NCBI GenBank assembly: GCA_014729135.1
Contig: WJKK01000001.1
Span: 192,593 to 256,592, forward strand
Origin: a candidate division WWE3 bacterium
GTDB taxonomy: Bacteria > Patescibacteriota > WWE3 > UBA101185 > UBA10185
DNA length: 64,000 nucleotides
Reading direction: 5' to 3'
Shown here: in pieces, positions 1,222 through 41,360 of the stretch
Layout of the letters: each line of letters begins with the position of its first letter
How positions within the stretch are numbered: position 1 is the stretch's first letter
Notes under the pieces: model-generated
Seen by the model: the letters and a program-made list of their open reading frames with translations, nothing else
The model's database searches: none
Told to the model about the DNA's origin: nothing
Program-made: the position numbers and the translations under genes

Positions 1222-1851
1222 TTATTTACTTTTTACCTCAGAATATCCAAACACCATTTCATAAAAACAGGAGGCTCCAAAGCCTACACTAAAAGCAAAT
1301 GCCAGCTCCTCTATAGGTATTCTAAAGAAATTTATTCCGGTTAAGTTTTCCAGCATCCAATGATTTTCAAAAAGTTGCGGATATAAAATCAACAGAATTT
1401 GAAAGACCGCAAAAGTTAGTAGTGTCGTTAGGACTCCATTTGCTAGTTCGAAGGCAAAAAGATCTTTTCTTAGCAAAGCAGCAATAAGCCCTATCAGCAA
1501 AGGAGGTAGGATGTGTGCAATGATGGAGTTATGTTGCAGTAGATCTATCAGCACTGCAAAGGCAAGTGTTGTTATTACAGCGGAAACTAGAAAAATTGAT
1601 TTGTGAGTTTTGTGGTTTGGTTTTTTGGAGTCTTGCACTTTGAAAAAGATTTCATAGAGTTCGGCGCTGACTCCTCCAAAGATGAATCCGTAGTAAAAGT
1701 CTTCAAAAGGGAATTGCGGGAATAGAAAAATCGGCTGCCAGTAATCCCATTTTGCATAGAGGTGTTCTATTATTACGGCGCCTATTCCTATGAGGACTCC
1801 TATTGTTATCATGTCTTTGCGGTGGTTTTTTTCCAGAAGAGGTATACCCAC
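1222..1851 (-). CDS. Lycopene cyclase domain-containing membrane protein
   Basis: 209 aa, multi-TM hydrophobic profile. Resembles the small lycopene-cyclase-domain membrane proteins common in CPR genomes. Call rests on pattern only. Confidence 0.35.
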   Translation of the reverse strand: MGIPLLEKNHRKDMITIGVLIGIGAVIIEHLYAKWDYWQPIFLFPQFPFEDFYYGFIFGGVSAELYEIFFKVQDSKKPNHKTHKSIFLVSAVITTLAFAVLIDLLQHNSIIAHILPPLLIGLIAALLRKDLFAFELANGVLTTLLTFAVFQILLILYPQLFENHWMLENLTGINFFRIPIEELAFAFSVGFGASCFYEMVFGYSEVKSK

Positions 1852-2158
1852 AAGGGGATTATGAGTGTTGTTCCTATGAAGTAGAAGTATTGCACGAAGG
1901 TATTCTAGCAGAGGTTTTGTTTGGAGCTTTTATGTTGCAGCTAAATTTTTTAATATGCAAAGTTCGCCTTTGGCGAAACTTTGCAGGCATATCAAAATTT
2001 ATAGGTGTATCCTTTCACAAGTCCTTTGGACTTGTGAGGCAACAAACAAATGTTCGCATATGAGCTCAATCCGCCTTCGGCGGATTTCGGGTCCAGCTAA
2101 ATTCTCCCGTTCGGTCGAATTTACCTGGCCCAGAAACATTCGCGAAGCGAATGGTTTC

Positions 2159-2249
2159 TGGCGGAGGGGATGGGATTCGAACCCATGTGTGACTATTGCC
2201 ACGCTTGGTTTTCGAGACCAGCCCGTTATGACCGCTTCGGTACCCCTCC
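2159..2249 (-). tRNA. tRNA-Ser (anticodon CGA), long variable arm
   Basis: Reverse complement folds as a 91-nt tRNA. Acceptor stem GGAGGGG/CCCCTCC, anticodon loop CUCGAAA (U33, anticodon CGA), long variable arm, T-arm ATGGG-TTCGAAT-CCCAT, discriminator G plus encoded CCA. Confidence 0.85.
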
Positions 2250-2292
2250 TTATCTTCTTTAATTTTTGAATGGTTTTGGTGGGTTTTAAGGT

Positions 2293-2336
2293 GCTCGCCT
2301 TTCACTTTGTGAAAGCTTCGGGTATAACAAAAAGCT
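2293..2336. repeat. 44-nt repeated element copy 1 (hairpin CTTTCAC-N3-GTGAAAG followed by TCGGGTATAACAAAA)
   Basis: Near-identical (40/44) to copy 2 at 2417-2460. Contains a perfect 7-bp hairpin. Lies upstream of tRNA-Ser on the minus strand. Confidence 0.8.
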
Positions 2337-2416
2337 TCTTCTCAAGTTGGTTGAAGCTGTTAAAGAACTGAGTACAGTTTTTATGTCGTAGCTAAATTTT
2401 TTTTGTTTTCGCAGAG

Positions 2417-2460
2417 GCTCGCCTTTCACTACGTGAAAGCCTCGGGTATAACAAAATGCT
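2417..2460. repeat. 44-nt repeated element copy 2
   Basis: Direct repeat of 2293-2336. Lies downstream of tRNA-Ile on the minus strand. Confidence 0.8.
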
Positions 2461-2512
2461 CTCTCCCGTTCGCATTATTGTTAAACCATTCAGGTTGCTG
2501 CGCAACACTGAA

Positions 2513-2589
2513 TGGTGGGCGTTCCTGGATTCGAACCAGGGACCGGTCGTGTATAAGACGACTGCTCTGACCAACTGAGCTAAACGCCC
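2513..2589 (-). tRNA. tRNA-Ile with apparent UAU anticodon
   Basis: Reverse complement is a canonical 77-nt cloverleaf. Acceptor GGGCGTT/AACGCCC, D-arm GCTC-AGTTGGTCA-GAGC, anticodon stem GTCGT/ACGAC with loop CTTATAC (U33, anticodon TAT, A37), T-arm CCTGG-TTCGAAT-CCAGG, discriminator A plus CCA. Confidence 0.8.
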
Positions 2590-2593
2590 TAAA

Positions 2594-2870
2594 AAATTTG
2601 TAACCAAATTTTTTTGGTTAAGCAAATCTGAAAGATTTGCTTATGCTTGAAATACTCGCCTACGGCGAGTTTTCAAGCTGACCAAAATGCGCATGCATTT
2701 TGGACTGCCGTACAAGTCTGTAAGACTTGTACGATAAGCCTTTGTAAACAAATTTTTAAGGTGATCAAAATGTGAGCGTATTAACGCGAGCATTTTGAAC
2801 TCCCTTACAAGTTGCTATGCAACTTGTAAGCATTCCGACTAAGTACTCGTTCGCTTGTACGCTAAGCCTC
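2594..2870. ncRNA. Dense array of at least 7 consecutive perfect hairpins (candidate structured RNA or repeat array)
   Basis: Back-to-back inverted repeats: TAACCAAA/TTTGGTTA; AGCAAATCT-GAAA-AGATTTGCT; CTTGAAA(ACTCGCC-TACG-GGCGAGT)TTTCAAG; CCAAAATGC-GCAT-GCATTTTGG; GTACAAGTC-TGTAA-GACTTGTAC; CAAAATG...CATTTTG; CTTACAAGTTGC-TAT-GCAACTTGTAAG. No ORF. Confidence 0.4.
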
Positions 2871-2964
2871 GGTAAATTTCTAAGAAGCATCTCTTTGGAA
2901 AAATCCCAACACCACAACACCTCCACCAAAGCAAACGAATTCTATCAAAACCTCAAAAACTAAT

Positions 2965-3390
2965 CTACTTTATCTTTAAAATACGGGAAGAAAACTGCTT
3001 ACCCTCCTCCGTCGTGGCCACCACCTGCAAAAAATGCTCCTTTTCGGGAAGAAGTAACGCCGTTGTAAGAGTCTGTTCCTTTAGATAGCTTTTCGCGCTC
3101 TCATCAAAAGTACTCTTAGCCGTGACAAGATGCTCCTGACTTGTCCCATACTTTAGGTAAGCCTCCACCGGAACTTTTGTTTTCACATCGACGCGAATAA
3201 CATGATCTGTAGGATTTCTTTCCAAATGAAATTCCTGAAATGGGCTCCAAAGCTGAATGTACAAATAAACGGCAGTCAAAATCACCGTGCTTAGTCCAAA
3301 AGCAGCCAAAGCAGCTGTGCTAATAATATATGAATGTGTCCACTTGTCGCTTCTTTTTGGATTTATTTTAGTTTTGGCTTTTTTTAACAT
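2965..3390 (-). CDS. Hypothetical membrane-anchored protein
   Basis: 141 aa with an N-terminal TM helix after a basic stretch. No recognisable motif. Confidence 0.4.
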   Translation of the reverse strand: MLKKAKTKINPKRSDKWTHSYIISTAALAAFGLSTVILTAVYLYIQLWSPFQEFHLERNPTDHVIRVDVKTKVPVEAYLKYGTSQEHLVTAKSTFDESAKSYLKEQTLTTALLLPEKEHFLQVVATTEEGKQFSSRILKIK

Positions 3391-4509: not shown

Positions 4510-5745
4510 TCAACGTAAAAGTTTAAGGCCTTCTCTTAAGCTCTCAATAAAATAATCAATTTCTTTTTTAGTGTTGTAAATTTGGAAACTTACTCTAGCA
4601 GAGGCGTTTAAACACAGCGCCTTATGCAATGGAGCTGTGCAGTGTTGACCTGCTCTAATGGCGATTCCCTTGGCATCCAAAACTCCTGCAATGTCATGCG
4701 CATGAACACCTTCTATTACAAAACTTACCAAACCGGCTCTTTTTTCTGCATCTAAAGGTCCTAGAATTCTCACGTCCTCTAAAACCCTTAACTCTTTAAT
4801 TGCATGTGCCGCTAAATCTTGAGTGTGTTTTTTCACTTCCTTCATTCCGATTTTTTCCAAGTATTTTACTGCTTCCGCCAATCCCACTGCTCCTGCTACA
4901 TTAGGAGTTCCTGCTTCAAATTTATGAGGAGTTGCTGCCCATGTACTCTTTTCAATAGAGACTTTGTTAATCATTCCGCCACCATAGCTAAAGGGAGTCA
5001 GTTTTTCTGCCAGTTCCTCCCGAATCCATAGACCTCCTATACCCATAGGTCCTAGCATTTTATGTCCGGAGAAAGTCAAGAAATCTATTCCAAGTTTTTT
5101 AACGTTTACCGGTATGTGTGGAACAGACTGAGCTCCGTCGACAACGATTTTGATATCCTTGTTGTACTTATGCACTTCCCGGGAAATTCCCGTAACGGGA
5201 AATACCGTACCTAAAACGTTAGAAACATGCCCCAAAGCAACTATTTTTGTTTTTTTGCTAAGCAAGTTTTTTAACTGTCTCATGGGGAAATCGGGCGATC
5301 CTTCTCTTTGTGACTCTTTCATTGAAATCACCTTTAAAACAGCTCCTTTTTCTTCTGCAATCCTTTGCCAAGGGATAAAATTGCTGTGATGCTCCACTAC
5401 CGTTGTAATAATCTCATCGCCCTTTTTTATATCCCTCTGCAGCATTAAGGCTACAGCATTTAAGGAATCCGTTGTCCCTTTAGTAAAAACCAACTCTTCC
5501 GGCTTACCTCCAATAAACTCAGCTACAGTTTTTCGAGCATCCTCATACAAATGTGTGGCCTCATCGCTTAAAGTATGAATCCCTCTATGCACATTTGCAT
5601 TATGCTTTTCATAATAGTTCAGCATAGCTTCAATAACCTGCTTAGGCTTTTGGGAGGTTGCCGAATTGTCCAAATACACAAGCGGTTTCCCGTTTATTTT
5701 TCTTTCCAAAATGGGAAAGTCTTTTCTGATTTTTTCTGTGCTCAT
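4510..5745 (-). CDS. sufS: Cysteine desulfurase SufS (class V aminotransferase)
   Basis: 411 aa with a PLP-lysine region (FSGHKMLGPMGIGGLW) and the active-site loop RAGQHCT. Confidence 0.9.
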   Translation of the reverse strand: MSTEKIRKDFPILERKINGKPLVYLDNSATSQKPKQVIEAMLNYYEKHNANVHRGIHTLSDEATHLYEDARKTVAEFIGGKPEELVFTKGTTDSLNAVALMLQRDIKKGDEIITTVVEHHSNFIPWQRIAEEKGAVLKVISMKESQREGSPDFPMRQLKNLLSKKTKIVALGHVSNVLGTVFPVTGISREVHKYNKDIKIVVDGAQSVPHIPVNVKKLGIDFLTFSGHKMLGPMGIGGLWIREELAEKLTPFSYGGGMINKVSIEKSTWAATPHKFEAGTPNVAGAVGLAEAVKYLEKIGMKEVKKHTQDLAAHAIKELRVLEDVRILGPLDAEKRAGLVSFVIEGVHAHDIAGVLDAKGIAIRAGQHCTAPLHKALCLNASARVSFQIYNTKKEIDYFIESLREGLKLLR

Positions 5746-18205: not shown

Positions 18206-18604
18206 ATGTTTAGGTGGTTGAAGCATATAGATTCCCTGGAGGATGCAGAAAAAAATATTAAGCGTGGGTATATCCTTGCGTATTTGTTAGGGGCCTTCAA
18301 CGCCCTCATTCCGCTTTTTATGGATCTCTCGGAAATTATGGATCTCTCGGAAAATTCATATTTAGTTTCTGTTCCCGGTAGTTTAGTGCACTTCATCTTG
18401 GGCTGGCTACTTCATAAGAAAAGAAGTCTTATTGCTAATTATGCGCTTCTTATTCTTAGCGTTTCGAACTTAATATTGTTGTTCACAATGGATGTAGGTG
18501 GGCTGGCCATCGGTATCAGGGCTTTTATGGTTTATATCTTTTTAAATTCTCTGAGAGCGTTATACTGGTTGAGGAAAGATAATTTACCTACTCAGGGCAC
18601 TTAA
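18206..18604 (+). CDS. Hypothetical membrane protein (contains tandem MDLSEI/MDLSEN repeat)
   Basis: 132 aa with 3-4 TM segments, transcribed divergently from the XRE gene. An internal 18-bp tandem repeat lies at about 18321-18356. Confidence 0.35.
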   Translation: MFRWLKHIDSLEDAEKNIKRGYILAYLLGAFNALIPLFMDLSEIMDLSENSYLVSVPGSLVHFILGWLLHKKRSLIANYALLILSVSNLILLFTMDVGGLAIGIRAFMVYIFLNSLRALYWLRKDNLPTQGT

Positions 18605-20053: not shown

Positions 20054-23029
20054 CTAGCTTTCTCCTGGAGTTTCCGGGTAATCTATTCGCCCTTTTCCTA
20101 ATTCAGCTACATAGCAGCTAAATGCTTCTTGAATGTAACTCCAAAACCAATTCACCTTGGGTTTAGCGTTATTTCGCCTAAACCACTTGTATATCACTTG
20201 AAACGGCACAAAAGAACCTTTTTCCGACAAGTTAGCTATGTACTTTTCTGTCCCTTTCCATATGTACAGGACGTAGGACCAGAAGTCAGAGTCTTTCTCC
20301 AGAAGTTCTATAGTGAAGTCCAAGAGGCTCAGGAAATTCGGCAAAAACAACGGATTCTTCAAATCTATTAAAGGGCTAAAAAAGGTTAAAGAAGATAGTT
20401 CCCCCTCTAGGGTGCTTACGCTGTGAACACCTTCTTTAGGAGTGTGTTTCTGAGCACGCTTTTCGATTTGGTTAAACCTCCACCAAATAGCCTCGCGATC
20501 TTCGTAGGCTCGAATCAAGATTTCGTTGCTAAGCTCTCGTATAATTTCAGCACGGGTACCTTCTTTGGTTTTGTTTTCCTGAAAAAGCTTCTTTAAGTAT
20601 TCTTCTCCTTCCCATAAACCTTTTGTGGTGAGTAAGCGTAAAACTTCCAGAGAAGAACGAACAACGTGTTCCTCCATAGAGGGATCTTCAATTAAACTCT
20701 GTACTACTTCTGCCGGGCTCGAAAGGTTAGAGGTTTGTTGTAGAAGTTGCTCCACTGTATAGGTGTAAGCAGAAGGCATGAGGCGTCTGCTATCACTGTT
20801 CGGGCTCAGGTAGCAAGAATTAACGTGGGAAAGTTCAGCATCTTCAACTTTTTGGGCAATATCTAAAATAAAACGCTGATCCTCGTAGTAGGCAAAGGGA
20901 ATATAGTCAATAAGCTTTTGCCGGTAATGTTTACGCACATAGTTTCTCCCTAGGAGTTCTCCTAAGACGCGCGCAGCTTCTCCAAAATACTGGGCTACAC
21001 CCGGACTCAATGTATAATGTTTAGAGTTGCCCGATGTGCCTTCAATAGTCACAGAGAATTCGCGTACTTTGGCTTTATCTAAAGCATTTTTAGCTATTTT
21101 TTGCAGACCTTCCTTATATTTAGGGGAAATTCTGTTTTCCAGGATCTCTTTGTTATTAAGGTAGTATCGAAATACATCCGTCATGTAGCGGTTTTCGTTT
21201 CCGCCGGCATGTAGGCGTGCTTCAAAACCTTGTAGAATTTCCTTTATTTGCTCTTCCTGGTATGTGTGCGAATTCTCGTTGTTTTCACTCTTAGGTGTCC
21301 CTTGCAATAGTGGTTTTACCCGGTTTCTTGCTTTTTCAATAGTGCTTTTAGCATTTTCGTTGTAGATCTCCTCGAAAGATTCATCCAAATCCCTTAGTAG
21401 ATTTGCATACTCTGGTCTATAGGTAAGTGCTAGAAGCTCTACCTGAGCTCCAAAGTTTCGCAGGGGTTCTTTTTCCGATTTAACAGCATCAACAACTTTT
21501 GAAAAATAAGTCTTATTGTGCGCCAGTACTTCTTTAAGAAAGTTTAGAACTATGTAGGACTTGTCGTAGTAAAGCTCATTGTTAAGTGCGTAGTATTGAG
21601 TAACTACATCCTCCAGAGCTGATAGTACTTCCTCGTCAAAAACTTCTATGACATGCTCTATTATTAGTCGGTCGCTTTTTTCCCTGTCGGGGCGACCGCC
21701 GTCGAAAATGGATTCCTTGTCTAAAAACGCCTTAAAAAATTTCTCGTCGCTAGCCATTTTCTTTAAAAAGTATACGATTCCTTCTTTACTGGAAATTTCA
21801 AAGAAGCCGTAACGTGCATAAATGTCCAGTCCTTCCTTTGTACCACGTACAAGATAGTCTATAGTTAAAGGAAGGTTTGGTGCTATTGTATAGGCTAGCT
21901 GTAAAAAGGCTTGTTTAACAAGCTTATCCTCAAACTCATACGAGTCCTTAGTTACTTCAACAATACTCGGATCGTCGAAATTTTCTAGTGCATGCAAAGA
22001 ATGCCTCTGCAAAACCCCATTACCCACATCAGAAGTAGCATAGTTAATGAGAATGTTCTTAACCTTCGTAAGCTCCCCGCTCTCAAAGGCTCCAAATTCA
22101 ACTAAAGGCCCTAATAAGGAGGCGATGTTTCCTGCTTTAGTGTAGCCTTCGTCCGTATCTATATCTACGCGACCAATTTCCCCAAAGAGGAAATCCTTTG
22201 CTTTCGGTGTTACAAACTTAGCTAAATTTTGGCCTGTCCAAACGGGGAACCATACTCTTAGCTCTTGGTAAAAGTCATAAAAGAGGTGGAAAGTAGTCTC
22301 GCATTCTTCCTCCGAAAAGGTAGTGGTAGAAACATTAGTGAGCGTTTGGGAGAGGTTTTCATTGATGTTTAAAGGATTTTTTTCTAAAAATTCGACTAAA
22401 GATGTGTGTAGAGCGTGAAGGTGCTCCGTGTCCGTTAAGAATGCATAAACTCCCAGCCAACTATGTTTAAAGGCCCTTATGCCCTCCTGTTCAAAAATAG
22501 CCGTTTTCAAAAAATTCCGCACAGGGTTTTCACGTTTAAGAATATACTGGGCCGCCAGATACTCTTGAACGGTATGATGTAGGAAACATAGACGTTCCAC
22601 CCCATCTTCACGCGTGTACGTAATAAGCGAAGAGGTGGCTAAGTCTTGTGTAAGTACGCCCTTATCACGTAGTTGCTGCAAAGTGGAATTCTCTACTTTA
22701 TTTTGCTGCAAAAGCTCCAGCGCGTAAGCCAGCGTTTCCAGCTGTCCCAGCTTTGCCGAGTTAGATTCCCTTGAGCGCACAAAGTGGTTATAAAAGTCAG
22801 ATCTAGAGAAAGAAGAGGAGTGCTTCTTGCGTAAGAAGGATTTTAGAGAAGCATACGCTTCTTTTTGGCGAACAAACGCGTTGTAGTAGTCTTTAAACCA
22901 AAAAAGATCTATGATCTCATTAACTTCTTCCTCTGTTAGTTCGAAACCCAACTCTTCAGAAGACAGCAAGCCCTCCCGTATTTCGGAAAGGTCAAGTTTA
23001 GCAGTTTCTACTTCATTTGCTGATGACAT
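20054..23029 (-). CDS. Large (~991 aa) alpha-helical hypothetical protein
   Basis: The ORF track begins at a TTG (23044). The first ATG (MSSANEVET) is at 23027-23029. Contains a CFLHHTVQEYLAAQYIL segment that resembles the winged-helix region of STAND/NACHT NTPases, but no P-loop. Confidence 0.45.
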   Translation of the reverse strand: MSSANEVETAKLDLSEIREGLLSSEELGFELTEEEVNEIIDLFWFKDYYNAFVRQKEAYASLKSFLRKKHSSSFSRSDFYNHFVRSRESNSAKLGQLETLAYALELLQQNKVENSTLQQLRDKGVLTQDLATSSLITYTREDGVERLCFLHHTVQEYLAAQYILKRENPVRNFLKTAIFEQEGIRAFKHSWLGVYAFLTDTEHLHALHTSLVEFLEKNPLNINENLSQTLTNVSTTTFSEEECETTFHLFYDFYQELRVWFPVWTGQNLAKFVTPKAKDFLFGEIGRVDIDTDEGYTKAGNIASLLGPLVEFGAFESGELTKVKNILINYATSDVGNGVLQRHSLHALENFDDPSIVEVTKDSYEFEDKLVKQAFLQLAYTIAPNLPLTIDYLVRGTKEGLDIYARYGFFEISSKEGIVYFLKKMASDEKFFKAFLDKESIFDGGRPDREKSDRLIIEHVIEVFDEEVLSALEDVVTQYYALNNELYYDKSYIVLNFLKEVLAHNKTYFSKVVDAVKSEKEPLRNFGAQVELLALTYRPEYANLLRDLDESFEEIYNENAKSTIEKARNRVKPLLQGTPKSENNENSHTYQEEQIKEILQGFEARLHAGGNENRYMTDVFRYYLNNKEILENRISPKYKEGLQKIAKNALDKAKVREFSVTIEGTSGNSKHYTLSPGVAQYFGEAARVLGELLGRNYVRKHYRQKLIDYIPFAYYEDQRFILDIAQKVEDAELSHVNSCYLSPNSDSRRLMPSAYTYTVEQLLQQTSNLSSPAEVVQSLIEDPSMEEHVVRSSLEVLRLLTTKGLWEGEEYLKKLFQENKTKEGTRAEIIRELSNEILIRAYEDREAIWWRFNQIEKRAQKHTPKEGVHSVSTLEGELSSLTFFSPLIDLKNPLFLPNFLSLLDFTIELLEKDSDFWSYVLYIWKGTEKYIANLSEKGSFVPFQVIYKWFRRNNAKPKVNWFWSYIQEAFSCYVAELGKGRIDYPETPGES

Positions 23030-23035
23030 GGCCCC

Positions 23036-23063
23036 ACTATACAATAGAAGAAAGAGAAGTCAA
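23036..23063 (-). promoter_or_regulatory. Sigma70-like promoter (TTGACT-N16-TATAGT) driving the 991-aa gene, predicted leaderless
   Basis: On the minus strand the sequence is TTGACT tctctttcttctattg TATAGT ggggcc ATG. The -10 ends 6 nt before the ATG. Confidence 0.5.
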
Positions 23064-25031: not shown

Positions 25032-25175
25032 TTACAGCCATTTTAGATTTTTTATTCAGTTTTGTCTAAATGGGGCATATTTGGTTTGAATTTCGTTCTT
25101 AGTTCTATCCCAAAATTTCTACCAGATTTCTAATAAAGTGCTGTACGGGGAGCCATTAAAGTTCGTATTCGAACT

Positions 25176-25222
25176 TTAATGCGCTTGTCAAAATCTTAAA
25201 AAGATTTTGACATGCCCGAAAG
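25176..25222. promoter_or_regulatory. Palindromic operator-like element, copy 2
   Basis: Core is GTCAAAATCTT-AAA-AAGATTTTGAC, a perfect 11-bp inverted repeat. The same flanks (AATG..CTTGTCA / ATGCCCGA) as copy 1. Contains TTGACA on the minus strand. Confidence 0.55.
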
Positions 25223-25327
25223 AATCGCAAAGCGATTCTTGAGCAAGAGGCGAAGCAACTCGCATGGGCCAGGTAAATGCGACTGAACAGGAGCATTTAG
25301 CTGCACCCGAAAACTTGCGTAGCAAGT

Positions 25328-25807
25328 TTGAGCTCCGGAGAAACTTTGAGCTCGATTCTGAGTATTAGAATTTATATGAACAACACAGAGCTTATTAATT
25401 TTATATGGGACAATATGATAGCAATATTTCTGTTTATTTTTTCACTGCTTCCTGTTCTTCCGGCAAAAATAGTTGATAAGTTTGGCTATGAAATAGCTCA
25501 GCGCTATGAAAATCCAAATCCGGCGAACTGGTCCATAATGAAGTTTATCACGAGGCAACTGTTTAATGGGGTAATTAGCGAAATAGCAATCAATTTAGGG
25601 TTGAGGGGAACAGTATCCCTAGTATTATTTGCTGTGGTTTTTACGGATCTATTAAATAACAAGACACTTTCAAACCAATCATTAACAGTTATTGCAGTAG
25701 CAGTTTTATCTCTATATCTTGAATATCTTGTTCAAAACGCAGAAGAAATTGAATTTTTCAGGTTATTCAAGTACAAAAGTAAAAAACCTAAAAAGGATCA
25801 GCAGTAG
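25328..25807 (+). CDS. Hypothetical membrane protein
   Basis: 159 aa with 4 TM segments. Confidence 0.35.
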   Translation: MSSGETLSSILSIRIYMNNTELINFIWDNMIAIFLFIFSLLPVLPAKIVDKFGYEIAQRYENPNPANWSIMKFITRQLFNGVISEIAINLGLRGTVSLVLFAVVFTDLLNNKTLSNQSLTVIAVAVLSLYLEYLVQNAEEIEFFRLFKYKSKKPKKDQQ

Positions 25808-26073
25808 TTACTTTTCTTATTCTCATCTCTCCTTGTCTTCAATAATTCCCACGGAGCGCTCCTACTAAATACCAAAAATACTTTGTTTAACGAATCATGT
25901 GGGTCAGGGGTTTTTGCCCGTTGCCCTGTAATTATTGAGTGAATTAGCTCCTTGTTTTGAATAATTATTTCCGCAATTTAGAATCCTTTTCAATATTAGT
26001 TAGGCAATACAGTGTTACAGAAAAATCTCCTTTCCTACGGAATGTGGAATTTTTAATGATATACTTTTCGTGC

Positions 26074-26538
26074 ATGGAAAATATGCCTTTAAAAACTCTA
26101 AAAGGAAACAATGGTCAAATAGAGTTGTATGGTTCTTGCATTGTTATTAAAAGAAAAGGCTTTTTGGCTAAACTTACGCATGGTTTTACCAAAGGTGAAA
26201 AAACAATATCTTTTGATAATATTAGTGGAATTCAAGTCAAAAAGCCGGGACTAACCTCGGGGTACATCCAGTTCAGTATCTCCGGGGGTAATGAGAGTAC
26301 GGGAGGTGTGTTTCAAGCTACTCAAGACGAGAATACTGTAGTTTTTCCACACAAAAAGGATTATCCGATTGCTGAAGAGATAAAGAGTTACATTTTGAAG
26401 CACAAAAGAGACAGCACCTTAGTTTCTACCTCGGGTAGTAGTGCTGACGAAATTCTTGAGTTTAGAAAACTTGCGGATGCAGGAGTAATTTCAGAGGAGG
26501 AGTTTGAGAAAAAGAAGAAGGTATTATTGAACCTTTAA
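26074..26538 (+). CDS. Bacterial PH-like domain protein with C-terminal SHOCT domain
   Basis: C-terminal EILEFRKLADAGVISEEEFEKKKKVLL matches the SHOCT motif. Start placed at the internal Met (MENMPLK); the ORF track starts at 25957. Confidence 0.45.
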   Translation: MENMPLKTLKGNNGQIELYGSCIVIKRKGFLAKLTHGFTKGEKTISFDNISGIQVKKPGLTSGYIQFSISGGNESTGGVFQATQDENTVVFPHKKDYPIAEEIKSYILKHKRDSTLVSTSGSSADEILEFRKLADAGVISEEEFEKKKKVLLNL

Positions 26539-26542
26539 CTCT

Positions 26543-27550
26543 ATGAGAACCATCTTTAACCCACTCAAATCCCTCTGGGACAAAAGTCCCCTCCATAAAA
26601 TCCTCCTCATACTCCTCTTTCCCATAACCCTCACATACATAATCATTGCTTACAAAAACTGGTCCGCCAAAACAAAAACCATTGTAATAGTACTCTTTTG
26701 GGCTCTTATAGGCGCTTTAAATACATCCTCAAATACATGCACGGTCTCCACTCCTTTAACCTCAGCGGAAAATTCCACCTCCATAAACCCCTCAACTACC
26801 GCTAAGTTAGCACAAGAAACCACTCCCAAAACCCCCTTTGAAAAAGGAACTGTAACCTCCGTTGTTGACGGCGACACAATTCACGTTTTAATTGAAGACA
26901 CCGACGTGACAGTTCGCTTGATAGGTATCGACACCCCTGAAACCAATCACCCTTCGGAGCCGGTTCAATGCTTTGGCAAAGAAGCCACACAGGCCTTAAA
27001 AGATTTAATTTTAGATACCGAAGTAGCTTTAGAAAAGGATGTTTCTTCTGTTGATAAGTACGGCCGGGCTTTGCGTTATGTTTGGTCGGGTGACGTTTTG
27101 GTAAACGAGTTCATGGTTCGCAATGGATATGCTTTTGCGTCGGCTTATCCTCCCGATGTGAAGTTTCAGGATCGTTTGGATTCTGCAGAGGAGTATGCGC
27201 GAACTAATTCTGCGGGTTTGTGGGCAGAGGCTACATGTGATGGTGATGTTTATACGGGAACTTATAGGGATCCTGATTTTGTGGAAGAGGCTGTCGACAC
27301 TGGAGGGGCTGCGCCCTCTTCCAATACTTCTGTGTCAACTACAGAGAGTGTTCCCGCTTCAAATGTTTCATCGGTTCCTTCCGCACCTGCTCCGGAACCG
27401 GCAGCTGCTCCAGCCTTTTCTTGTAGCTGCAGCAAAACTTGTAGTGAAATGGTCTCTTGTGAAGAAGCTTACTTTCAGCTAAATACTTGTGGCTGTTCCG
27501 CTAGAGACGGTGATAGCGATGGTGTTCCCTGTGAGAGCATTTGTCGGTAA
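26543..27550 (+). CDS. Secreted thermonuclease (SNase/micrococcal nuclease family) with C-terminal Excalibur Ca-binding domain
   Basis: SNase core with DGDT and RLIGIDTPE motifs. N-terminal TM anchor. C-terminal Cys-rich tail containing DGDSDGVPCE. Confidence 0.75.
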   Translation: MRTIFNPLKSLWDKSPLHKILLILLFPITLTYIIIAYKNWSAKTKTIVIVLFWALIGALNTSSNTCTVSTPLTSAENSTSINPSTTAKLAQETTPKTPFEKGTVTSVVDGDTIHVLIEDTDVTVRLIGIDTPETNHPSEPVQCFGKEATQALKDLILDTEVALEKDVSSVDKYGRALRYVWSGDVLVNEFMVRNGYAFASAYPPDVKFQDRLDSAEEYARTNSAGLWAEATCDGDVYTGTYRDPDFVEEAVDTGGAAPSSNTSVSTTESVPASNVSSVPSAPAPEPAAAPAFSCSCSKTCSEMVSCEEAYFQLNTCGCSARDGDSDGVPCESICR

Positions 27551-29547: not shown

Positions 29548-30435
29548 ATGTTTCATGTTCATCCTGAGGGCACTGATGAACATGCTCATGCAGAGGGAGA
29601 GCAGCTTCGGCAAGAGGTGCAGGAAAAGTTAGATTTGCAAGAGGTTTATGGAGGCATTCATTTTGTGGATCCTTCGAGACCTGAAAAAACACCTGATATA
29701 GAGGAGAATCTCGACTCTCTGGAGGCTGCCGGTATTCGTCCCGGAATTGAATTCAACATTATACAAGCAGAAGAAGGTTGGCGTCTTGATATTTCCCCGG
29801 AGGAATTACGTGCTCTAAAAGAAGAACATCCGGGGCTTCTTGCTATTGCCTCTATTCATGCAGTTAAGGCTTTTGGTTTTACAAAGGAATCCGACAGTGA
29901 GGCTGCTCCCGAGCAGACGGCGGATGCAATGCTAGCAGCTTATACCGATTTGATAGGTACTTATGGTTCCAGCCTGGATGTTTTAGGTCATCCCTTTGGG
30001 TATGTTACAACGGAGGTGACCCCTGAACATATGCGACAGCTTGCTTCTTTGGCTTCGGAACAGGGGATTGCGCTTGAGATTAATCTTGCTAATACAGGTC
30101 TTTATAATTTGCATGAAAAAGAGTTTTTGCCTTCTGTGGAACAGATTACCCAATGGAATCCGGTTCTAAGATTTCCCGAGGTTCTGGAAGAATCTGATGT
30201 TTTGCTCTCTATTGGTGGGGATTTTCATGGCAACTCAACTATAGAGCAGAAAATGCTTGCCGGAACTTTAACGGATGAGGAAAGATTTCAAGATTCTGAG
30301 TTTACGTATGCTGCATTGCGAATGATGGTTGCCTTGGATCGTTATATGCAGCAACATGATATTTCTAGGGAACGTATCATAAATACTTGGGATTCTGAGG
30401 ATGTCGCATCTTGGTCTAGCCGTTGTTTTAGATAA
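29548..30435 (+). CDS. PHP-domain (polymerase/histidinol phosphatase family) phosphoesterase-like protein
   Basis: N-terminal HVH..EHAH metal-binding motifs and a C-terminal GGDFHGN motif. Start placed at MFHVHPEG. Confidence 0.4.
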   Translation: MFHVHPEGTDEHAHAEGEQLRQEVQEKLDLQEVYGGIHFVDPSRPEKTPDIEENLDSLEAAGIRPGIEFNIIQAEEGWRLDISPEELRALKEEHPGLLAIASIHAVKAFGFTKESDSEAAPEQTADAMLAAYTDLIGTYGSSLDVLGHPFGYVTTEVTPEHMRQLASLASEQGIALEINLANTGLYNLHEKEFLPSVEQITQWNPVLRFPEVLEESDVLLSIGGDFHGNSTIEQKMLAGTLTDEERFQDSEFTYAALRMMVALDRYMQQHDISRERIINTWDSEDVASWSSRCFR

Positions 30436-31507
30436 AATAACTCTTCACAGCAAACTCCTGCTGCTCTACAAACAAACGCTTCAAATGGAACAAATTATTC
30501 TGCTCATAAAACAAAAGCAAAGCCTTTTTATACTCCACTTCATCCACACTTCTATACGACAGCGGATAATATCCATTTGCTAAAAGCAGCGCATTACTAA
30601 TCATTCTAGAAGTTCTTTTATTACCGTCTCCAAAAGGTTGTATATAAGAAATCATTGCCAAAAGGAGCAGGGCTTTTTCAGGAATGCTTTTCTCATTCTT
30701 CAACAACCTAAGAGTTTTCTCCAAAGCCTCCGTAATTTGCTGCTGATTATCTAAAGGAATATACTTAGTCCCCGTAATTCCCACCGCGTGCTTTCTAAGC
30801 CCTTCCTTGATTTCAAGATCCTTAGTAAGAGTTGCATGTAGCGCTCTTAAATCATGTAGCGAAATTTCCCTATAATCTTTTTTGTGCTCTAGAATCGTGC
30901 CAAAAGCTTCTTTATGGTTCAAAATCATTAGAGCCTCCTCTTTGGAATGTCCTTTAGCCTCCTTTTTATTTTTGATAAGCTCCTCTGTTTCCAGAAGGGA
31001 GTAGGTATTTCCCTCTATTTGAGAGGACTTCCAGCTTAGCTCTATAGTGAATCTTTCCAACTCCTTTCGAATTATTGTGGGATCCAGTGTTTTAAACTTT
31101 TTTGTAAGTTTTTCCCTGCCTTGTTCAAAGATTGCCTCTTCCTTAGGATTTAAAAGTTTCGCACTTTTTAAAGCAGAAAAAACACTAAAATTGAAATTTT
31201 CACTCTTTAGTGTCCGGCTATCTGGCGGAGTTTCAAAGTAGTTATCGAGGCCTACGGGGCTTAAAAGGCCTGTTTTTCTAGTAGTTTTATATTTGACATA
31301 CCTTCCTTTGCCTTCCGTCGCCAAAAGACCTTGATCTATTAGGGAATTTAAATCTCTCAGAAGCGTTATTTTTGATACTTTTTCCTCAAGGTTTGCTTCT
31401 TTTGCTATTTCAGCTCTTGTTTTTGGAGTGGTTTTAGCTAAGAAATCTAGGATTTTTTGCTGCCTTGATGTGGGTTTCGTTTCATTCATGTGTTTCCAGC
31501 GTATCAT
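30428..31507 (-). CDS. Fic family protein with N-terminal winged-helix domain
   Basis: Fic motif HPFGDGNKRTSR (HxFx[DE]GNxR). N-terminal wHTH. Confidence 0.75.
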   Translation of the reverse strand: MIRWKHMNETKPTSRQQKILDFLAKTTPKTRAEIAKEANLEEKVSKITLLRDLNSLIDQGLLATEGKGRYVKYKTTRKTGLLSPVGLDNYFETPPDSRTLKSENFNFSVFSALKSAKLLNPKEEAIFEQGREKLTKKFKTLDPTIIRKELERFTIELSWKSSQIEGNTYSLLETEELIKNKKEAKGHSKEEALMILNHKEAFGTILEHKKDYREISLHDLRALHATLTKDLEIKEGLRKHAVGITGTKYIPLDNQQQITEALEKTLRLLKNEKSIPEKALLLLAMISYIQPFGDGNKRTSRMISNALLLANGYYPLSYRSVDEVEYKKALLLFYEQNNLFHLKRLFVEQQEFAVKSYFI

Positions 31508-32977: not shown

Positions 32978-33316
32978 ATGAAGACATTAATTCAATTTTT
33001 AGTAAACGGACTGGCAGTTTTTGTCAGCGGGTACTTACTTCCGGAGGTATATATAGAAAATTATTGGATTGCCTTATTAACGGCTTTTGTATTGGGTCTT
33101 CTCAATCTATTGGTAAAGCCCTTCCTCCTGTTTTTCTCCCTTCCGATAACTATAGTTACTTTTGGGCTCTTTACTTTGGTAATCGATACCATTGTGATTC
33201 TGCTGGCTGCTGAGCTTGTTCCCGGATTTGCAGTTAATAGTTTTTTGAGTGCATTCCTGTTTGCCGTTGTGCTGTCAGTTTTTGCTTATTTGTTTCACAC
33301 TTTGCTCGGGGTTTAA
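32978..33316 (+). CDS. Phage holin family 4-like (DUF360) small membrane protein
   Basis: 112 aa with 4 TM segments and a conserved LVPGF segment. Confidence 0.5.
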   Translation: MKTLIQFLVNGLAVFVSGYLLPEVYIENYWIALLTAFVLGLLNLLVKPFLLFFSLPITIVTFGLFTLVIDTIVILLAAELVPGFAVNSFLSAFLFAVVLSVFAYLFHTLLGV

Positions 33317-36436: not shown

Positions 36437-37354
36437 TTAAAGGTCTCTATACTCTTTCAACAACTTCCTTTGCTTTTTAGACAACCTCTGCGGAATCTTC
36501 ACAAAAACCTCCACAATAACATCACCTCTACCGGAACTATTTAACCTAGGCATGCCCTTACCGCGTACTCTAAACTGCGTTCTAGGTTGTGTGCCCTGAG
36601 GAATCTTTAACTTAGCCTTACCAACTCCCGACTTTTTATCCGGATCAACAACAGGCACCTCCACATTATCGCCCAAAGCAGCTTGCACAAAATCAATCTC
36701 TACAGTTGTTCCCAAATTATCCCCAACACGCTGAAACTCCTTTGGACTTGCCACCCTAAACGTAATGTACAAATCCCCCGGAGGAATCCCATTTGGCCCC
36801 GGCATTCCCTTACCTGCAAACTTCATTTCAGTGCCTGTTCTTATACCCGCGGGAATCTTCACCTTAAGCTCTCCACTTTCAACTTTAATTTCACGTTCAG
36901 CTCCATGAACTGCATCCGCAAAATTCACGCGCATTTCATAGTACAAATTCTTCCCTTTACGAGGACGGCGCCCCCCGGAAAATCCCCTAAACCCAAACAT
37001 CTCCTCAAAAATGTCAAAAGGATCCACATTCCCAAAAGGAGAACTTCCTGAAGTAGTGTACGTATAAGTAAAAGGCCCTTGCTGATTAAACCCGCCACGA
37101 GCACCGCCTCCCTGTGGCCCAAATCCTGCATTAACCGTCCCAAACTGATCAAACATCTTACGTTTCTGAGGATCACTTAACACCTGATAAGCCTCATTAA
37201 TCTCCTTAAACCGCTTCTCCGCCTGAGCCTTATCCGCAGGATCAACCATATCAGGATGGTGCTCTTTTGCCAGCTTTTTGTAGGCCTTTTTTATTTCAGC
37301 AGCGGAAGCGTCTTTGGAAACACCTAAAATGTCGTAGTAGTTCTTGTTTGCCAT
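36437..37354 (-). CDS. dnaJ: DnaJ-class co-chaperone lacking the Cys-rich zinc-finger domain (CbpA-like)
   Basis: J-domain with HPD (YYDILGV...EHHPD), a G/F-rich region and a C-terminal substrate-binding domain. No CxxCxGxG repeats. Confidence 0.8.
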   Translation of the reverse strand: MANKNYYDILGVSKDASAAEIKKAYKKLAKEHHPDMVDPADKAQAEKRFKEINEAYQVLSDPQKRKMFDQFGTVNAGFGPQGGGARGGFNQQGPFTYTYTTSGSSPFGNVDPFDIFEEMFGFRGFSGGRRPRKGKNLYYEMRVNFADAVHGAEREIKVESGELKVKIPAGIRTGTEMKFAGKGMPGPNGIPPGDLYITFRVASPKEFQRVGDNLGTTVEIDFVQAALGDNVEVPVVDPDKKSGVGKAKLKIPQGTQPRTQFRVRGKGMPRLNSSGRGDVIVEVFVKIPQRLSKKQRKLLKEYRDL

Positions 37355-37375
37355 AAGACGCTCTCTGCTCTATTT

Positions 37376-39307: not shown

Positions 39308-39336
39308 GTTTTTCCTTTCTTTTAATTTTTAATTAA

Positions 39337-39888
39337 TTATTTACTTGTTTCTTGGGAAGTTTTTCCCACAACAACTTTAACCGGTTTCAAAACTCTATCC
39401 TTAAACTTATAACCATTTTGCAAAACTTCCAGCACTTTTCCTTTCTGTGTTTCATCCTCAACTTCTTGAGCTTCAATTGCCTCCATAAGATTTTCGTCAA
39501 ACTCTTTCCCCCCAGCTTCAATTTTTTCTATACCTGTAGTCTTTAAAACTTCCCAAAACTGATCAACTACCATTTTCAATCCCTGGTCCTCTGAATGTTT
39601 TTCCACCATTAGCAAATTGTCGTAAACCGGAATTAACTCTGACGCTAAAACAAAATTTGAAAATTTTACTGCATCTTCTTTCTCTTTTATTGTTCTACGC
39701 TGTAAGTTTTTGTAATCAGCCAAAGCGCGTTTCCAATTATTTTCCATTTCTTGCAGCTGCTTTTCCAAATCCCCTGTATCTTGAGTCACTTTTTTAGTCT
39801 CCTTCCCAGTTTCCTTATTTTCCTCCACACGCTCATCCTGATTTTTTGGCGCATTCTTATTATTGTCTTTCATCTTTTTCTTATTCAT
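39337..39888 (-). CDS. grpE: Nucleotide exchange factor GrpE
   Basis: 183 aa with coiled-coil and C-terminal GrpE pattern. Sits between hrcA and dnaK. Confidence 0.8.
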   Translation of the reverse strand: MNKKKMKDNNKNAPKNQDERVEENKETGKETKKVTQDTGDLEKQLQEMENNWKRALADYKNLQRRTIKEKEDAVKFSNFVLASELIPVYDNLLMVEKHSEDQGLKMVVDQFWEVLKTTGIEKIEAGGKEFDENLMEAIEAQEVEDETQKGKVLEVLQNGYKFKDRVLKPVKVVVGKTSQETSK

Positions 39889-39892
39889 ACTT

Positions 39893-40609: not shown

Positions 40610-40610
40610 A

Positions 40611-40637
40611 TTATCACTATAATATCACGAGTGATAA
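40611..40637. promoter_or_regulatory. CIRCE-like operator (TTATCACTA-N9-GAGTGATAA)
   Basis: Perfect inverted repeat matching the CIRCE consensus TTAGCACTC-N9-GAGTGCTAA, with one complementary substitution per arm. Directly upstream of the hrcA ATG. Confidence 0.7.
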
Positions 40638-40649
40638 AGAAGTCAAGAA

Positions 40650-41315: not shown

Positions 41316-41360
41316 TTTTTTTTGCCTGTTATTCTAGCCAAGACAACTGTTTCCTATCTT

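What the first reader, a model, noticed from the sequence alone, without database searches (positions are those of the whole stretch)
2250..2964. 700-bp non-coding tRNA island packed with back-to-back perfect hairpins and a duplicated 44-nt element
Two tRNAs (Ser-CGA, Ile-UAU) lie between the lycopene-cyclase-domain gene and a membrane-protein gene. A 44-nt element with a 7-bp hairpin (CTTTCAC/GTGAAAG) plus TCGGGTATAACAAAA appears twice (2293-2336, 2417-2460). Further on, 2594-2870 holds at least 7 consecutive perfect stem-loops with 7-12 bp stems, several capped by GAAA or UACG tetraloops, with no coding potential. This density of perfect hairpins is not explained by a single terminator. It suggests a structured ncRNA, a processing scaffold for the tRNA transcript, or a family of miniature repeats.
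Basis: seen in the sequence. Interest (0 to 1): 0.6.

Follow-up and report, generated by a model that had tools for sequence, protein, structure and literature searches.

The report
Conserved hairpin modules flanking tRNA genes
The hairpin-packed stretch around two tRNA genes of this candidate-phylum (WWE3) bacterium is built from a previously undescribed three-hairpin module that is kept, with compensating base changes, behind the same tRNA genes in related genomes, so it is a real structured element, most likely part of the tRNA transcripts, whose job is still unknown.

Summary
The non-coding stretch runs 1852-2964. It holds 12 of the window's 34 perfect hairpins, and a second hairpin cluster lies at 25153-25353. 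The window comes from a candidate division WWE3 (CPR) genome.

The hairpins are not a random set. Most belong to a ~100-nt unit:
- a hairpin that starts exactly at the encoded CCA of a tRNA and ends in UGG;
- a long irregular hairpin (SL1) with an invariant AAAU/AUUU segment and tandem G.A pairs;
- a CCCGA linker;
- a variable 8-9-bp hairpin (SL2);
- GAG.

Seven units from four genomes align collinearly. Of their pair cells, 88% form pairs, and covariation exceeds all 500 shuffles. Two window copies differ at 14 positions, 12 of which form 6 compensatory pairs.

The island is present at the same locus (HPF, small ORF, tRNA-Ile(UAU), tRNA-Ser(CGA)) in a WWE3 subclade and absent from more distant relatives. 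There is no Rfam match, no U-tract terminators, no transposase and no Nop-domain (Tas) gene.

Best reading (confidence about 0.5): lineage-specific structured spacer/trailer modules of tRNA transcripts that act in 3'-end processing, termination or stability. Main rival: a DNA-level palindromic repeat family. It is a new family of a known general kind, of moderate interest.

The parts
2757..2832 (+). Module D. It is an inverted (antisense to the tRNAs) copy of the SL1-linker-SL2 module. SL1 is 2765-2798 (UCAAAAUG-UGA-GCGU auua ACGC-GAG-CAUUUUGA). SL2 is the 12-bp perfect hairpin at 2804-2830.
   Evidence: It scores 22.8 bits with model R1 and 55.2 bits with R2, although it was one of the sequences R2 was built from. 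Weak antisense hits at the same relative position upstream of tRNA-Ile occur in L093, L095 and L097.
2682..2733 (.). Two perfect hairpins (unit E): CCAAAATGC gcat GCATTTTGG (2682-2703) and CGTACAAGTCT gta AGACTTGTACG (2709-2733). They are a tandem paralogue of module D.
   Evidence: (repeat D7). The second hairpin has an orthologue in L093 (CGTACAAGTTC tac GAACTTGTATG) with compensatory changes.
2619..2678 (.). Two hairpins (unit F): TAAGCAAATCT gaa AGATTTGCTTA (2619-2643) and GCTTGAAA(T)ACTCGCC tac GGCGAGTTTTCAAGC (2645-2678).
   Evidence: Both have orthologues in L093 (TAAGCAAATCC aca GGATTTGCTTA; CTTGAAAAATTTCG taaaa CGAAATTGTTTCAAG).
2591..2620 (.). AT-rich overlapping palindromes that form the leader hairpin, ending 1 nt before tRNA-Ile position +1.
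   Evidence: Leader hairpins abut G1 in L093 and L095 as well.
2513..2589 (-). tRNA-Ile, anticodon UAU, with CCA encoded.
   Evidence: 72.1 bits.
2486..2515 (-). Trailer hairpin H0 of tRNA-Ile. It starts at the encoded CCA and ends in UGG (CCAUUCAG(U)GUUGC gca GCAACCUGAAUGG).
   Evidence: -17.3 kcal/mol; alignment A5.
2414..2488 (-). Module B (SL1 2449-2487, linker ACCCGA, SL2 2423-2439, GAGC).
   Evidence: It scores 29.5 bits with R1 and 57.3 bits with R2.
2371..2402 (-). Spacer motif AAAUUUAGCUACGACAUAAAA, repeated at 1925-1951. A similar GUAAAUUAGCUACGCAAC lies between modules in L097.
   Evidence: repeat D6, 89%.
2290..2366 (-). Module C, a degenerate tandem copy of B (SL2 2299-2315).
   Evidence: (repeat D1). 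It scores only 9 bits with R1.
2159..2249 (-). tRNA-Ser, anticodon CGA, with CCA encoded.
   Evidence: 51 bits.
2130..2161 (-). Trailer hairpin H0 of tRNA-Ser. It starts at the CCA and ends in UGG (CCAGAAAC(C)AUUCGC uuc GCGAAUGUUUCUGG).
   Evidence: -18.3 kcal/mol. The orthologue in L093 shows compensatory changes.
2062..2132 (-). Module A, the best-preserved copy: UGGGCCAGGUAAAUUC-GA-CC gaac GG-GA-GAAUUUAGCUGGACCC (SL1), then GA, then AAUCCGCC gaa GGCGGAUU (SL2), then GAGCUC.
   Evidence: 102.6 bits.
1957..2037 (.). Two further hairpins downstream of module A: GCAAAGTTCGCC ttt GGCGAAACTTTGC (1957-1984) and TCACAAGTCC ttt GGACTTGTGA (2015-2037). Their stems resemble those of units F and E.
   Evidence: (repeats D12, D19).
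25153..25181 (+). Orphan H0-type hairpin that begins with CCA but has no tRNA in front of it (CCAUUAAAGUUCG uauu CGAACUUUAAUG).
   Evidence: It aligns with tRNA trailer hairpins in A5.
25180..25246 (+). Module R2' (simple SL1 25186-25212, linker UGCCCGA, SL2 25220-25240, GAGC). It is collinear with the tRNA-Ser trailer unit of L097.
   Evidence: It scores 23.7 bits with R1.
25265..25353 (+). Module R2 (25265-25335) is 57/71 identical to module A, and 12 of the 14 differences form 6 compensatory pairs. It is followed by a GAGCUC...GAGCUC hairpin (25330-25353), and an ORF starts at 25376.
   Evidence: 100 bits.

Best explanation
The island is made of a lineage-specific family of structured modules that belong to the transcribed flanks (leader, spacer and above all 3' trailer) of the tRNA-Ile(UAU) and tRNA-Ser(CGA) genes in one subclade of candidate division WWE3.

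The basic unit is about 100 nt and has these parts:
- H0: a hairpin whose 5' arm begins at the encoded CCA of the tRNA and whose 3' arm ends in UGG.
- SL1: a rod of about 18 bp. From base to tip it has GG/CC and CCA/UGG base pairs, a few covarying pairs, an invariant AAAU/AUUU segment, two covarying pairs, tandem G.A/A.G, and often a 2-4-bp mini-stem.
- A single-stranded (A/G)CCCGA linker.
- SL2: 8-9 covarying pairs that begin AA..UU, with a 3-4-nt loop.
- GAG(C).

Shown here: the unit exists, it is repeated, it is conserved in position and in pairing across genomes, and its helices covary.

Inferred: it acts as RNA in the pre-tRNA transcript. By sequestering the CCA end and stacking stable helices right behind it, the unit would define where the tRNA 3' end is cut, block read-through and 3' exonucleases, and so insulate neighbouring transcription units. 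The cut would come from an endonuclease such as RNase Z or RNase III, since exonucleases would be stopped. tRNA-Ser appears to have its own TAAAAT-type -10 box just after the tRNA-Ile trailer modules. The released trailer could itself persist as a stable ~100-nt RNA.

Units have also been duplicated, inverted, shuffled and decayed. Region 25153-25353 is a tRNA-less copy.
For: - Hairpin density is far above chance.
- The module motif occurs three times (A, B and R2) with 0 expected. CCCGA-perfect hairpin-GAG has 5 distinct instances against 1 chance-like hit in 1.39 Mb searched on both strands.
- A and R2 differ at 14 positions, and 12 of these are 6 compensatory pairs.
- The island is conserved at the orthologous locus HPF - small ORF - tRNA-Ile - tRNA-Ser in L093/L094, L095, L097/L098 and L096.
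- SL1 alignment of 10 copies from 4 genomes: 9 of 14 pairs change on both sides. Covariation is 0.308 against 0.164 in shuffles (0/500) and <=0.09 when the structure is slid.
- Seven whole trailer units align collinearly. 88% of pair cells are paired. Covariation is 0.346 against 0.134 (0/500).
- In L093 the G.A/A.G flanks of SL2 are replaced by U-A/A-U pairs, which shows these positions lie within the helix.
- The spacing between AAAU and AUUU varies from 9 to 20 nt. This fits recognition of a folded hairpin and not of duplex DNA by a dimer.
- Six of seven tRNA trailers in the subclade fold into a hairpin that starts at the CCA (-10 to -18 kcal/mol). None does so in distant relatives.
- In the relatives, all seven modules behind tRNAs are on the tRNA-sense strand.
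- There are no coding signals, and nothing else is annotated between locus tags GF360_00870 and GF360_00890.
Against: - No expression or end-mapping data exist.
- Stems are almost purely Watson-Crick (1-3% G.U). They fold equally well on both strands, and G.U against A.C counts are not decisive. RNA-level selection is therefore not proven.
- One module per genome lies inverted upstream of tRNA-Ile.
- Units are lost (no structured unit behind L093 tRNA-Ile), shuffled in order between genomes, and decayed (module C; 2838-2876). This is typical of repeat families.
- The second cluster is not behind any tRNA and sits between divergent genes.
- More distant WWE3 relatives manage without the island.
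- The conserved CCCGA/GAG and AAAU/AUUU elements have no identified partner.
Confidence: 0.5

Rival explanations
1. The modules are a DNA-level palindromic repeat family, comparable to REP/BIME, BOX or MITE elements. It spreads by local duplication, inversion and occasional transposition. Stems are kept perfect by hairpin-templated (quasi-palindrome) correction during replication, or by selection on cruciform or single-stranded DNA hairpins. Any RNA effect is a by-product.
For: - Stems are nearly free of G.U and fold equally on both strands.
- Pairing runs in to the minimal 3-nt loop in 12 of 16 hairpins.
- C(GNA)G triloops and tandem sheared G.A are especially stable in DNA hairpins (own knowledge).
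- Some arm changes are symmetric indels (units D and E).
- Copies occur in both orientations, in tandem, as decayed remnants, and as a tRNA-less copy 23 kb away that is 80% identical (57/71) to module A.
- The order of units differs between genomes.
Against: - Non-canonical features (G.G mismatch, bulged A, tandem G.A) are conserved while neighbouring pairs covary. Templated correction would be expected to erase them.
- Position and orientation relative to the tRNA CCA end are conserved across genomes whose HPF proteins are only 62-71% identical to the window's.
- Stem sequences differ between copies, unlike REP or MITE families.
- There is no GTAG/CGTC tag.
- No RAYT, Y1 transposase or other transposase was found in the window.
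Confidence: 0.27
2. The unit is a trans-acting small RNA, or the RNA part of a dedicated ribonucleoprotein. One possibility is a stable trailer-derived sRNA bound through its tandem-G.A-bracketed hairpins, in the manner of box C/D or K-turn-type recognition. In the extreme case it would be a guide-like system related to the TIGR stem-loop arrays known from CPR bacteria.
For: - Sequence-invariant helix segments and a single-stranded CCCGA point to a specific binding partner.
- Two G.A-bracketed hairpins occur per module.
- The tRNA-less copy suggests the unit can work on its own.
- CPR genomes do carry arrays of variable palindromic stems with minimal box C/D motifs (PMC12045711; bioRxiv 10.64898/2026.09.09.750476).
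Against: - There is no pair of 8-12-nt variable spacers.
- The would-be spacers are self-complementary and carry invariant AAAU/AUUU.
- Hairpin loops are 3-4 nt.
- There is no 3-nt bulge for a K-turn.
- No Nop-domain or other candidate partner gene lies in the window or beside the islands in relatives.
- There is no promoter-like site in front of the orphan copy.
Confidence: 0.12
3. The hairpins are ordinary intrinsic terminators, or chance palindromes in AT-rich spacer DNA.
For: The hairpins sit behind tRNA genes and behind the HPF/141-aa operon, where terminators are expected.
Against: - None of the family's perfect hairpins is followed by a T tract. The four terminator-like hits in the region (1.9 expected from shuffles) are other weak stems, and there are none in the second cluster.
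- Density, covariation and orthologous conservation exclude chance.
Confidence: 0.03

Closest known systems
REP/BIME, BOX, ERIC and Correia-type stem-loop repeat families of bacterial intergenic regions (general survey: PMC2267715; REP tags: PMC3733652)
   Same: They are short intergenic palindromic modules that occur in mosaic clusters, in tandem and inverted, with decayed copies. They form stable stem-loops in transcripts and can stabilise or terminate RNAs.
   Different: Here the stems differ in sequence between copies while pairing is kept. The unit is anchored to the CCA end of tRNA genes and is conserved at an orthologous locus across genomes. There is no GTAG/CGTC tag and no RAYT gene was seen. 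Copy number in the genome is unknown.
Structured 3' trailers and terminators of bacterial tRNA transcripts, such as the E. coli leuX terminator that follows the CCA closely (PMC2811032) and the 3' external transcribed spacer of glyW-cysT-leuZ that acts as an sRNA sponge (own knowledge)
   Same: A stable hairpin follows the mature tRNA 3' end directly and has to be removed by processing. The trailer can be a functional RNA in its own right.
   Different: The unit here has no U tract. It is a three-hairpin module with conserved non-canonical features, it is repeated several times per locus, and it also occurs without a tRNA.
RNase III processing signals between cistrons (phage T7 early RNA, rRNA operon spacer stems; own knowledge)
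   Same: Both are irregular hairpins of about two helical turns with internal loops, repeated between units of a polycistronic transcript, with partly conserved sequence.
   Different: No cleavage data exist. SL1 carries tandem G.A and an invariant AAAU/AUUU segment that is not known from RNase III sites.
TIGR stem-loop arrays of TIGR-Tas systems (PMC12045711; bioRxiv 10.64898/2026.09.09.750476)
   Same: They are found in CPR bacteria. They are arrays of units with variable but consistently palindromic stems, and conservation is limited to a few nucleotides (box C/D G.A motifs) near the stem. A hairpin can sit between the two halves of a unit.
   Different: TIGR units carry two variable 8-12-nt spacers in a large loop and lie next to a Nop-domain tas gene. 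Here the loops are 3-4 nt, the inner arms pair with each other and are partly invariant, and no tas gene is present.

Membership tests
TIGR-Tas stem-loop array | A tas gene encoding a Nop-domain protein lies next to (or around) the array. | tested here: not met
   No Nop domain was found in the roughly 70 window ORFs scanned with Pfam, including a scan at E<=1 for unannotated ORFs. Genes beside the islands in relatives are HPF, a small ORF, Metallophos and LytR. A very divergent Tas could escape Pfam.
TIGR-Tas stem-loop array | [quoted passage not shown] | tested here: not met
   Perfect hairpins have 3-4-nt loops. In SL1 the segments in spacer position are 7-8 nt, complementary to each other, and carry AAAU/AUUU invariant in 10 copies.
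TIGR-Tas stem-loop array | A conserved CUU lies at the base of the stem, marking the processing site. | tested here: inconclusive
   Two leader hairpins begin with CUU (CUUACAAG.., CUUGAAAA..), but the modules do not.
REP/BIME (RAYT-associated repeats) | 20-40-nt imperfect palindromes whose sequence is shared by all copies. | tested here: not met
   SL2 and the other stems differ almost entirely between copies.
REP/BIME (RAYT-associated repeats) | A GTAG or CGTC tetranucleotide tag at one end of the palindrome (PMC3733652). | tested here: not met
   The flanks are CCCGA and GAG. GTAG occurs only across some loop/stem junctions.
REP/BIME (RAYT-associated repeats) | A RAYT (Y1 transposase-like) gene in the genome, and high copy number. 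| not testable with these tools
   No such gene lies in the 64-kb window. The rest of the 864-kb contig could not be fetched.
Intrinsic (Rho-independent) terminator | A G+C-rich hairpin followed directly by a U tract. | tested here: not met
   None of the family's hairpins was picked up by the terminator scan. There were 4 weak unrelated hits against 1.9 expected, and 0 hits in the second cluster.
Any Rfam 15 family | A covariance-model match. | tested here: not met
   Only the tRNAs reach gathering scores. Nothing credible appears at E<=10 in the island or at E<=1 in the relatives' loci.
CRISPR or other direct-repeat array | Near-identical direct repeats at regular spacing. | tested here: not met
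   Tandem Repeats Finder finds nothing in 1800-3000. The direct repeats that exist are few and 70-90% identical.
tRNA genes | Cloverleaf structure with an anticodon. | tested here: met
   ARAGORN and Rfam RF00005 detect both genes.

The most novel reading that the evidence does not exclude
The three-hairpin unit is the recognition element of a dedicated, so far unknown RNA-handling system of this CPR lineage. One possibility is a tRNA 3'-end maturation and termination pathway in which the CCA is deliberately sequestered. Another is a stable trailer-derived RNA bound by a protein that reads tandem-G.A-bracketed hairpins. In either case the tRNA-less copy at 25153-25353 would show that the unit can be deployed away from tRNA genes.
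Probability: 0.12. Interest if true: 0.75.

Novelty: new member of a known kind. Interest (0 to 1): 0.5.

Why it matters
CPR/Patescibacteria have tiny, tightly packed genomes (89% coding in this window). A conserved 1-kb block of non-coding structure is therefore unlikely to be idle. The unit gives a concrete, covariation-supported RNA (or single-strand DNA) motif with unusual conserved features: the CCA end locked in a helix, tandem G.A pairs, an invariant AAAU/AUUU helix segment, and a CCCGA linker. It can be searched for in other CPR genomes and tested for a role in tRNA 3'-end formation, a step that is poorly understood in these organisms. It also serves as a caution for searches for TIGR-type arrays in CPR genomes, because it resembles them superficially without being one.

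Tried and rejected
- **Rfam**, on both strands of the island, the window and the relatives' loci: only tRNAs.
- **Strict module motif in 185,579 species genomes**: 0 hits.
- **Looser motif in JGI metagenomes**: 7 hits, all lacking the hairpin and of unrelated G+C content, so treated as chance.
- **Same looser motif in viral contigs**: 0 hits.
- **Exact-protein look-ups to fetch more of this genome**: failed.
- **Lycopene_cyc homologues' contigs**: no synteny and no island.
- **TrpRS-based loci from 80 genomes** (1.29 Mb): no module with model R1. Model R2, run on 27 sources, found none outside the subclade. The WWE3 relative L040 has HPF followed by tRNA-Ile after 21 nt.
- **Riboswitch or 5'-UTR idea**: rejected. 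The genes downstream of the modules differ between genomes, and in L097 the next gene is convergent.
- **Intrinsic terminator**: rejected.
- **Strand assignment from G.U pairs or folding energy**: inconclusive.
- **K-turn reading of CCCGA/GAG**: rejected by inspection. There is no C-stem partner and no 3-nt bulge geometry.
- **Pseudoknot between the SL1 loop (CGGG) and CCCG**: rejected, because R2 does not covary.
- **attC (integron) reading**: rejected. GTTRRRY/RYYYAAC boxes are present in only one or two copies, and there is no integrase of that type.
- **att-site duplication linking the second cluster to the serine-integrase element at tRNA-Asn**: not found.
- **Resemblances to tmRNA (UUCGAC), Y RNA (GGUCCGA), SRP and tRNA 5' ends (UUUAGCU)**: noted by eye. 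They are present in single copies only and unsupported by Rfam, so treated as chance.
- **TIGR-Tas membership**: rejected (see the membership test).
Full report
**1. What is in the sequence**

Two tRNA genes lie on the minus strand: tRNA-Ser(CGA) at 2159-2249 and tRNA-Ile(UAU) at 2513-2589. They sit in a non-coding stretch that runs from 1852 to 2964, so the island is about 1.1 kb and not 700 bp. On one side is the start of a Lycopene_cyc-domain ORF (1222-1851). On the other is the stop of a 141-aa membrane-type ORF (2965-3390).

- A mechanical search for perfect hairpins (stem >=7, loop 3-8) finds 34 in the 64-kb window. Twelve lie in 2015-2830 and four more in 25154-25329.
- Folding energies are far below those of shuffled sequence. 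The z-score is -9.9 (minus strand) and -9.6 (plus strand) for 2590-2964, -7.5 for 1852-2158 and -5.9 for 25032-25377.
- These two regions are the most structured of 25 intergenic regions in the window.
- The loops are mostly three nucleotides, not GAAA/UACG tetraloops. Triloops make up 12/16 island hairpins against 1/18 elsewhere.

**2. The hairpins belong to one modular family**

On the tRNA-sense (minus) strand, the sequence behind tRNA-Ser reads: CCAGAAACCAUUCGC uuc GCGAAUGUUUCUGG | GCCAGGUAAAUUC GA CC gaac GG GA GAAUUUAGCUGGACCC | GA AAUCCGCC gaa GGCGGAUU GA GCUC.

- Almost the same 71 nt occur on the plus strand at 25265-25335. The two copies are 57/71 identical. Of the 14 differences, 12 form 6 compensatory pair changes. 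The non-canonical features (a G.G mismatch, a bulged A, tandem G.A) are unchanged.
- A covariance model built from the two best copies also finds B, a simpler copy at 25180-25246, and an inverted copy at 2757-2832 on the plus strand. It matches nothing convincing in coding sequence.
- Other hairpins in the island share stem cores with each other (ACAAGU, UCGCC/GGCGA, CAAAAUG), which points to tandem and inverted duplication.

**3. Origin and comparison with relatives**

The Lycopene_cyc ORF and the HPF ORF are 100% identical to proteins GF360_00870 and GF360_00890 of a candidate division WWE3 bacterium on an 864-kb contig. Nothing else is annotated in the island.

- *Distant relatives lack the island.* In WWE3 SURF_46 (L040), HPF is followed by tRNA-Ile(UAU) after 21 nt. 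tRNA flanks in L013, L017 and L001 are unstructured. Neither model finds the module in the relatives' loci fetched through TrpRS. Motif scans of public genome, metagenome and viral collections gave nothing real.
- *Closer relatives keep it.* Contigs carrying the closest HPF homologues (62-71% identity) keep the gene order HPF, small ORF, hairpins, tRNA-Ile(UAU), modules, tRNA-Ser(CGA), modules. These are L093/L094, L095, L097/L098 and the contig-end fragments L092 and L096.
- *Orthologous hairpins differ by compensating changes.* One example is CGTACAAGTCT/AGACTTGTACG against CGTACAAGTTC/GAACTTGTATG. Another is TAAGCAAATCT/AGATTTGCTTA against TAAGCAAATCC/GGATTTGCTTA.

**4. The conserved unit**

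In six of the seven tRNA genes of this subclade, the trailer folds into a hairpin whose first nucleotides are the encoded CCA and whose last are UGG. The folding energy is -10 to -18 kcal/mol. No distant relative shows this.

Seven units of about 100 nt align collinearly: [CCA-hairpin-UGG][SL1][(A/G)CCCGA][SL2][GAG]. They come from behind window tRNA-Ile and tRNA-Ser, L093 tRNA-Ser, L095 tRNA-Ile, L097 tRNA-Ile and tRNA-Ser, plus the tRNA-less window copy at 25153-25250.

| Alignment | Pair cells paired | Covariation score | Shuffled control | Slid-structure control |
|---|---|---|---|---|
| Seven whole units (A5) | 88% | 0.346 | 0.134 +/- 0.032 (0/500 reach it) | <=0.135 |
| Ten SL1-SL2 modules from four genomes (A4) | 80.8% | 0.308 | 0.164 (0/500 reach it) | <=0.09 |

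- In the ten-module alignment, 9 of the 14 SL1 pairs change on both sides.
- Three consecutive pairs of the AAAU/AUUU helix segment never vary (the fourth is kept in 7 of 10 copies). The distance between the two halves varies from 9 to 20 nt. This fits recognition of a folded hairpin and not of duplex DNA.
- CCCGA-perfect hairpin-GAG has five distinct instances in these genomes, against one chance-like hit in 1.39 Mb searched on both strands.
- In L093 the G.A/A.G flanks of SL2 are replaced by U-A/A-U pairs. This places those positions inside the helix.

**5. What it is not**

- It matches no Rfam family.
- It is not a set of canonical terminators.
- It is not a direct-repeat array.
- It is not associated with a transposase, RAYT or integron integrase in the window.
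- It is not a 5'-UTR element, because the downstream genes differ between genomes.
- It is not a TIGR stem-loop array, although those arrays of variable palindromic stems with box C/D G.A motifs are common in CPR bacteria (PMC12045711; bioRxiv 10.64898/2026.09.09.750476) and were examined closely. The units here have no pair of variable 8-12-nt spacers. The inner arms pair with each other and are partly invariant. Loops are 3-4 nt. No Nop-domain gene lies nearby.

**6. RNA or DNA?**

For RNA:
- The units are anchored to the tRNA CCA end.
- In the relatives, all seven modules behind tRNAs are on the tRNA-sense strand.
- Non-canonical features are conserved next to covarying pairs.
- tRNA-Ser appears to have its own TAAAAT-type -10 box directly after the tRNA-Ile trailer modules in three genomes (inspection output). 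This would make those modules a boundary between transcription units.

For DNA:
- Stems are almost free of G.U and fold equally on both strands.
- Pairing runs to the minimal loop.
- Triloops of the C(GNA)G type and tandem G.A pairs are very stable in DNA.
- Units are inverted (one per genome, upstream of tRNA-Ile), shuffled, lost, decayed, and copied to a tRNA-less site.

I weight the RNA reading at about 0.5, the DNA-level repeat family at about 0.27, and a trans-acting RNA or ribonucleoprotein at about 0.12.

**7. Mechanism proposed (inferred)**

In the primary transcript, H0 locks the CCA end into a helix, and SL1 and SL2 stack behind it. Such a 3' flank would stop 3' exonucleases. Maturation would then need an endonucleolytic cut at or next to the CCA. 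The same stack would hinder read-through into the next unit and would protect the 3' end of whatever lies upstream. Leader hairpins that end at position -1/+1 of tRNA-Ile (window, L093, L095) would likewise leave the upstream HPF/141-aa mRNA with a protected 3' end after RNase P cleavage. The released trailer may persist as a structured RNA. The conserved CCCGA, GAG and AAAU/AUUU elements imply a specific partner that remains unidentified.

**8. Verdict**

This is a genuine, lineage-specific structured element with no match in Rfam 15 or in the literature I could search. It is a new family within the known general kinds of intergenic stem-loop repeats and tRNA-transcript spacer structures. Its function is not demonstrated. 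Interest is moderate (0.5).

Noticed in passing
window 13989-17907: An integrated-element-like gene set lies next to tRNA-Asn(GUU) (13989-14063, +). It includes a large serine recombinase/integrase at 14022-15629(-), whose 3' end overlaps the tRNA, a weak DnaD-like or replication-initiator-like ORF at 15665-16279(-), and a small terminase at 17410-17907(-). The extent of the element is unknown, and no att duplication was found.
   Followed up: partly
window 45842-46054: A 213-nt intergenic region with G+C 0.28 lies where gene orientation switches from minus (36437-45841) to plus (46055-56201) and cumulative GC skew reaches its minimum. It could be a replication origin or simply an operon boundary.
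   Followed up: no
window 2513-2589; L040 6425-6500; L013 768-839; L017 7915-7989; L093, L095, L097: A tRNA-Ile with anticodon UAU, uncommon in bacteria, is conserved in all seven loci: directly downstream of the HPF gene (or of the small ORF after it) in L040 and the subclade loci, and upstream of TrpRS in L013 and L017. The small ORF (122-146 aa) between HPF and the tRNA is present only in the subclade that has the hairpin island.
   Followed up: partly
window 8439-12692 and 20054-23044: Two very large ORFs (1417 aa and 996 aa, both on the minus strand) have no Pfam match. The second also has no PHROG match.
   Followed up: no
window 50009-56201: A type IV secretion/pilus-like gene set is present: a PrgI-family protein, a TraG/VirB4-like P-loop ATPase (52276-54717) and a sortase. 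A DNA polymerase III delta-like ORF lies among them.
   Followed up: no
window 25957-27550, 30428-31507, 47705-48292: Several genes that often travel with mobile elements or defence are scattered through the window: a DUF4429/SHOCT protein, a secreted SNase-type nuclease with an Excalibur domain, a Fic/DOC protein, and a SocA/Panacea antitoxin-domain protein. A YopX protein (46513-46932) and a holin-family protein (32978-33316) are also present.
   Followed up: no
window 18318-18353: A perfect 18-nt tandem duplication (TTATGGATCTCTCGGAAA x2) lies inside ORF 18206-18604.
   Followed up: no
window 1925-1951 and 2371-2402; L097 about 5035-5055: A short motif (AAAUUUAGCURCRAC on the tRNA-sense strand) recurs between modules in the window, and a similar one occurs in L097. 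It shares UUUAGCU with the 3' arm of SL1 in modules A and R2, and with the 5' part of tRNA-Ile. Its meaning is unknown.
   Followed up: partly
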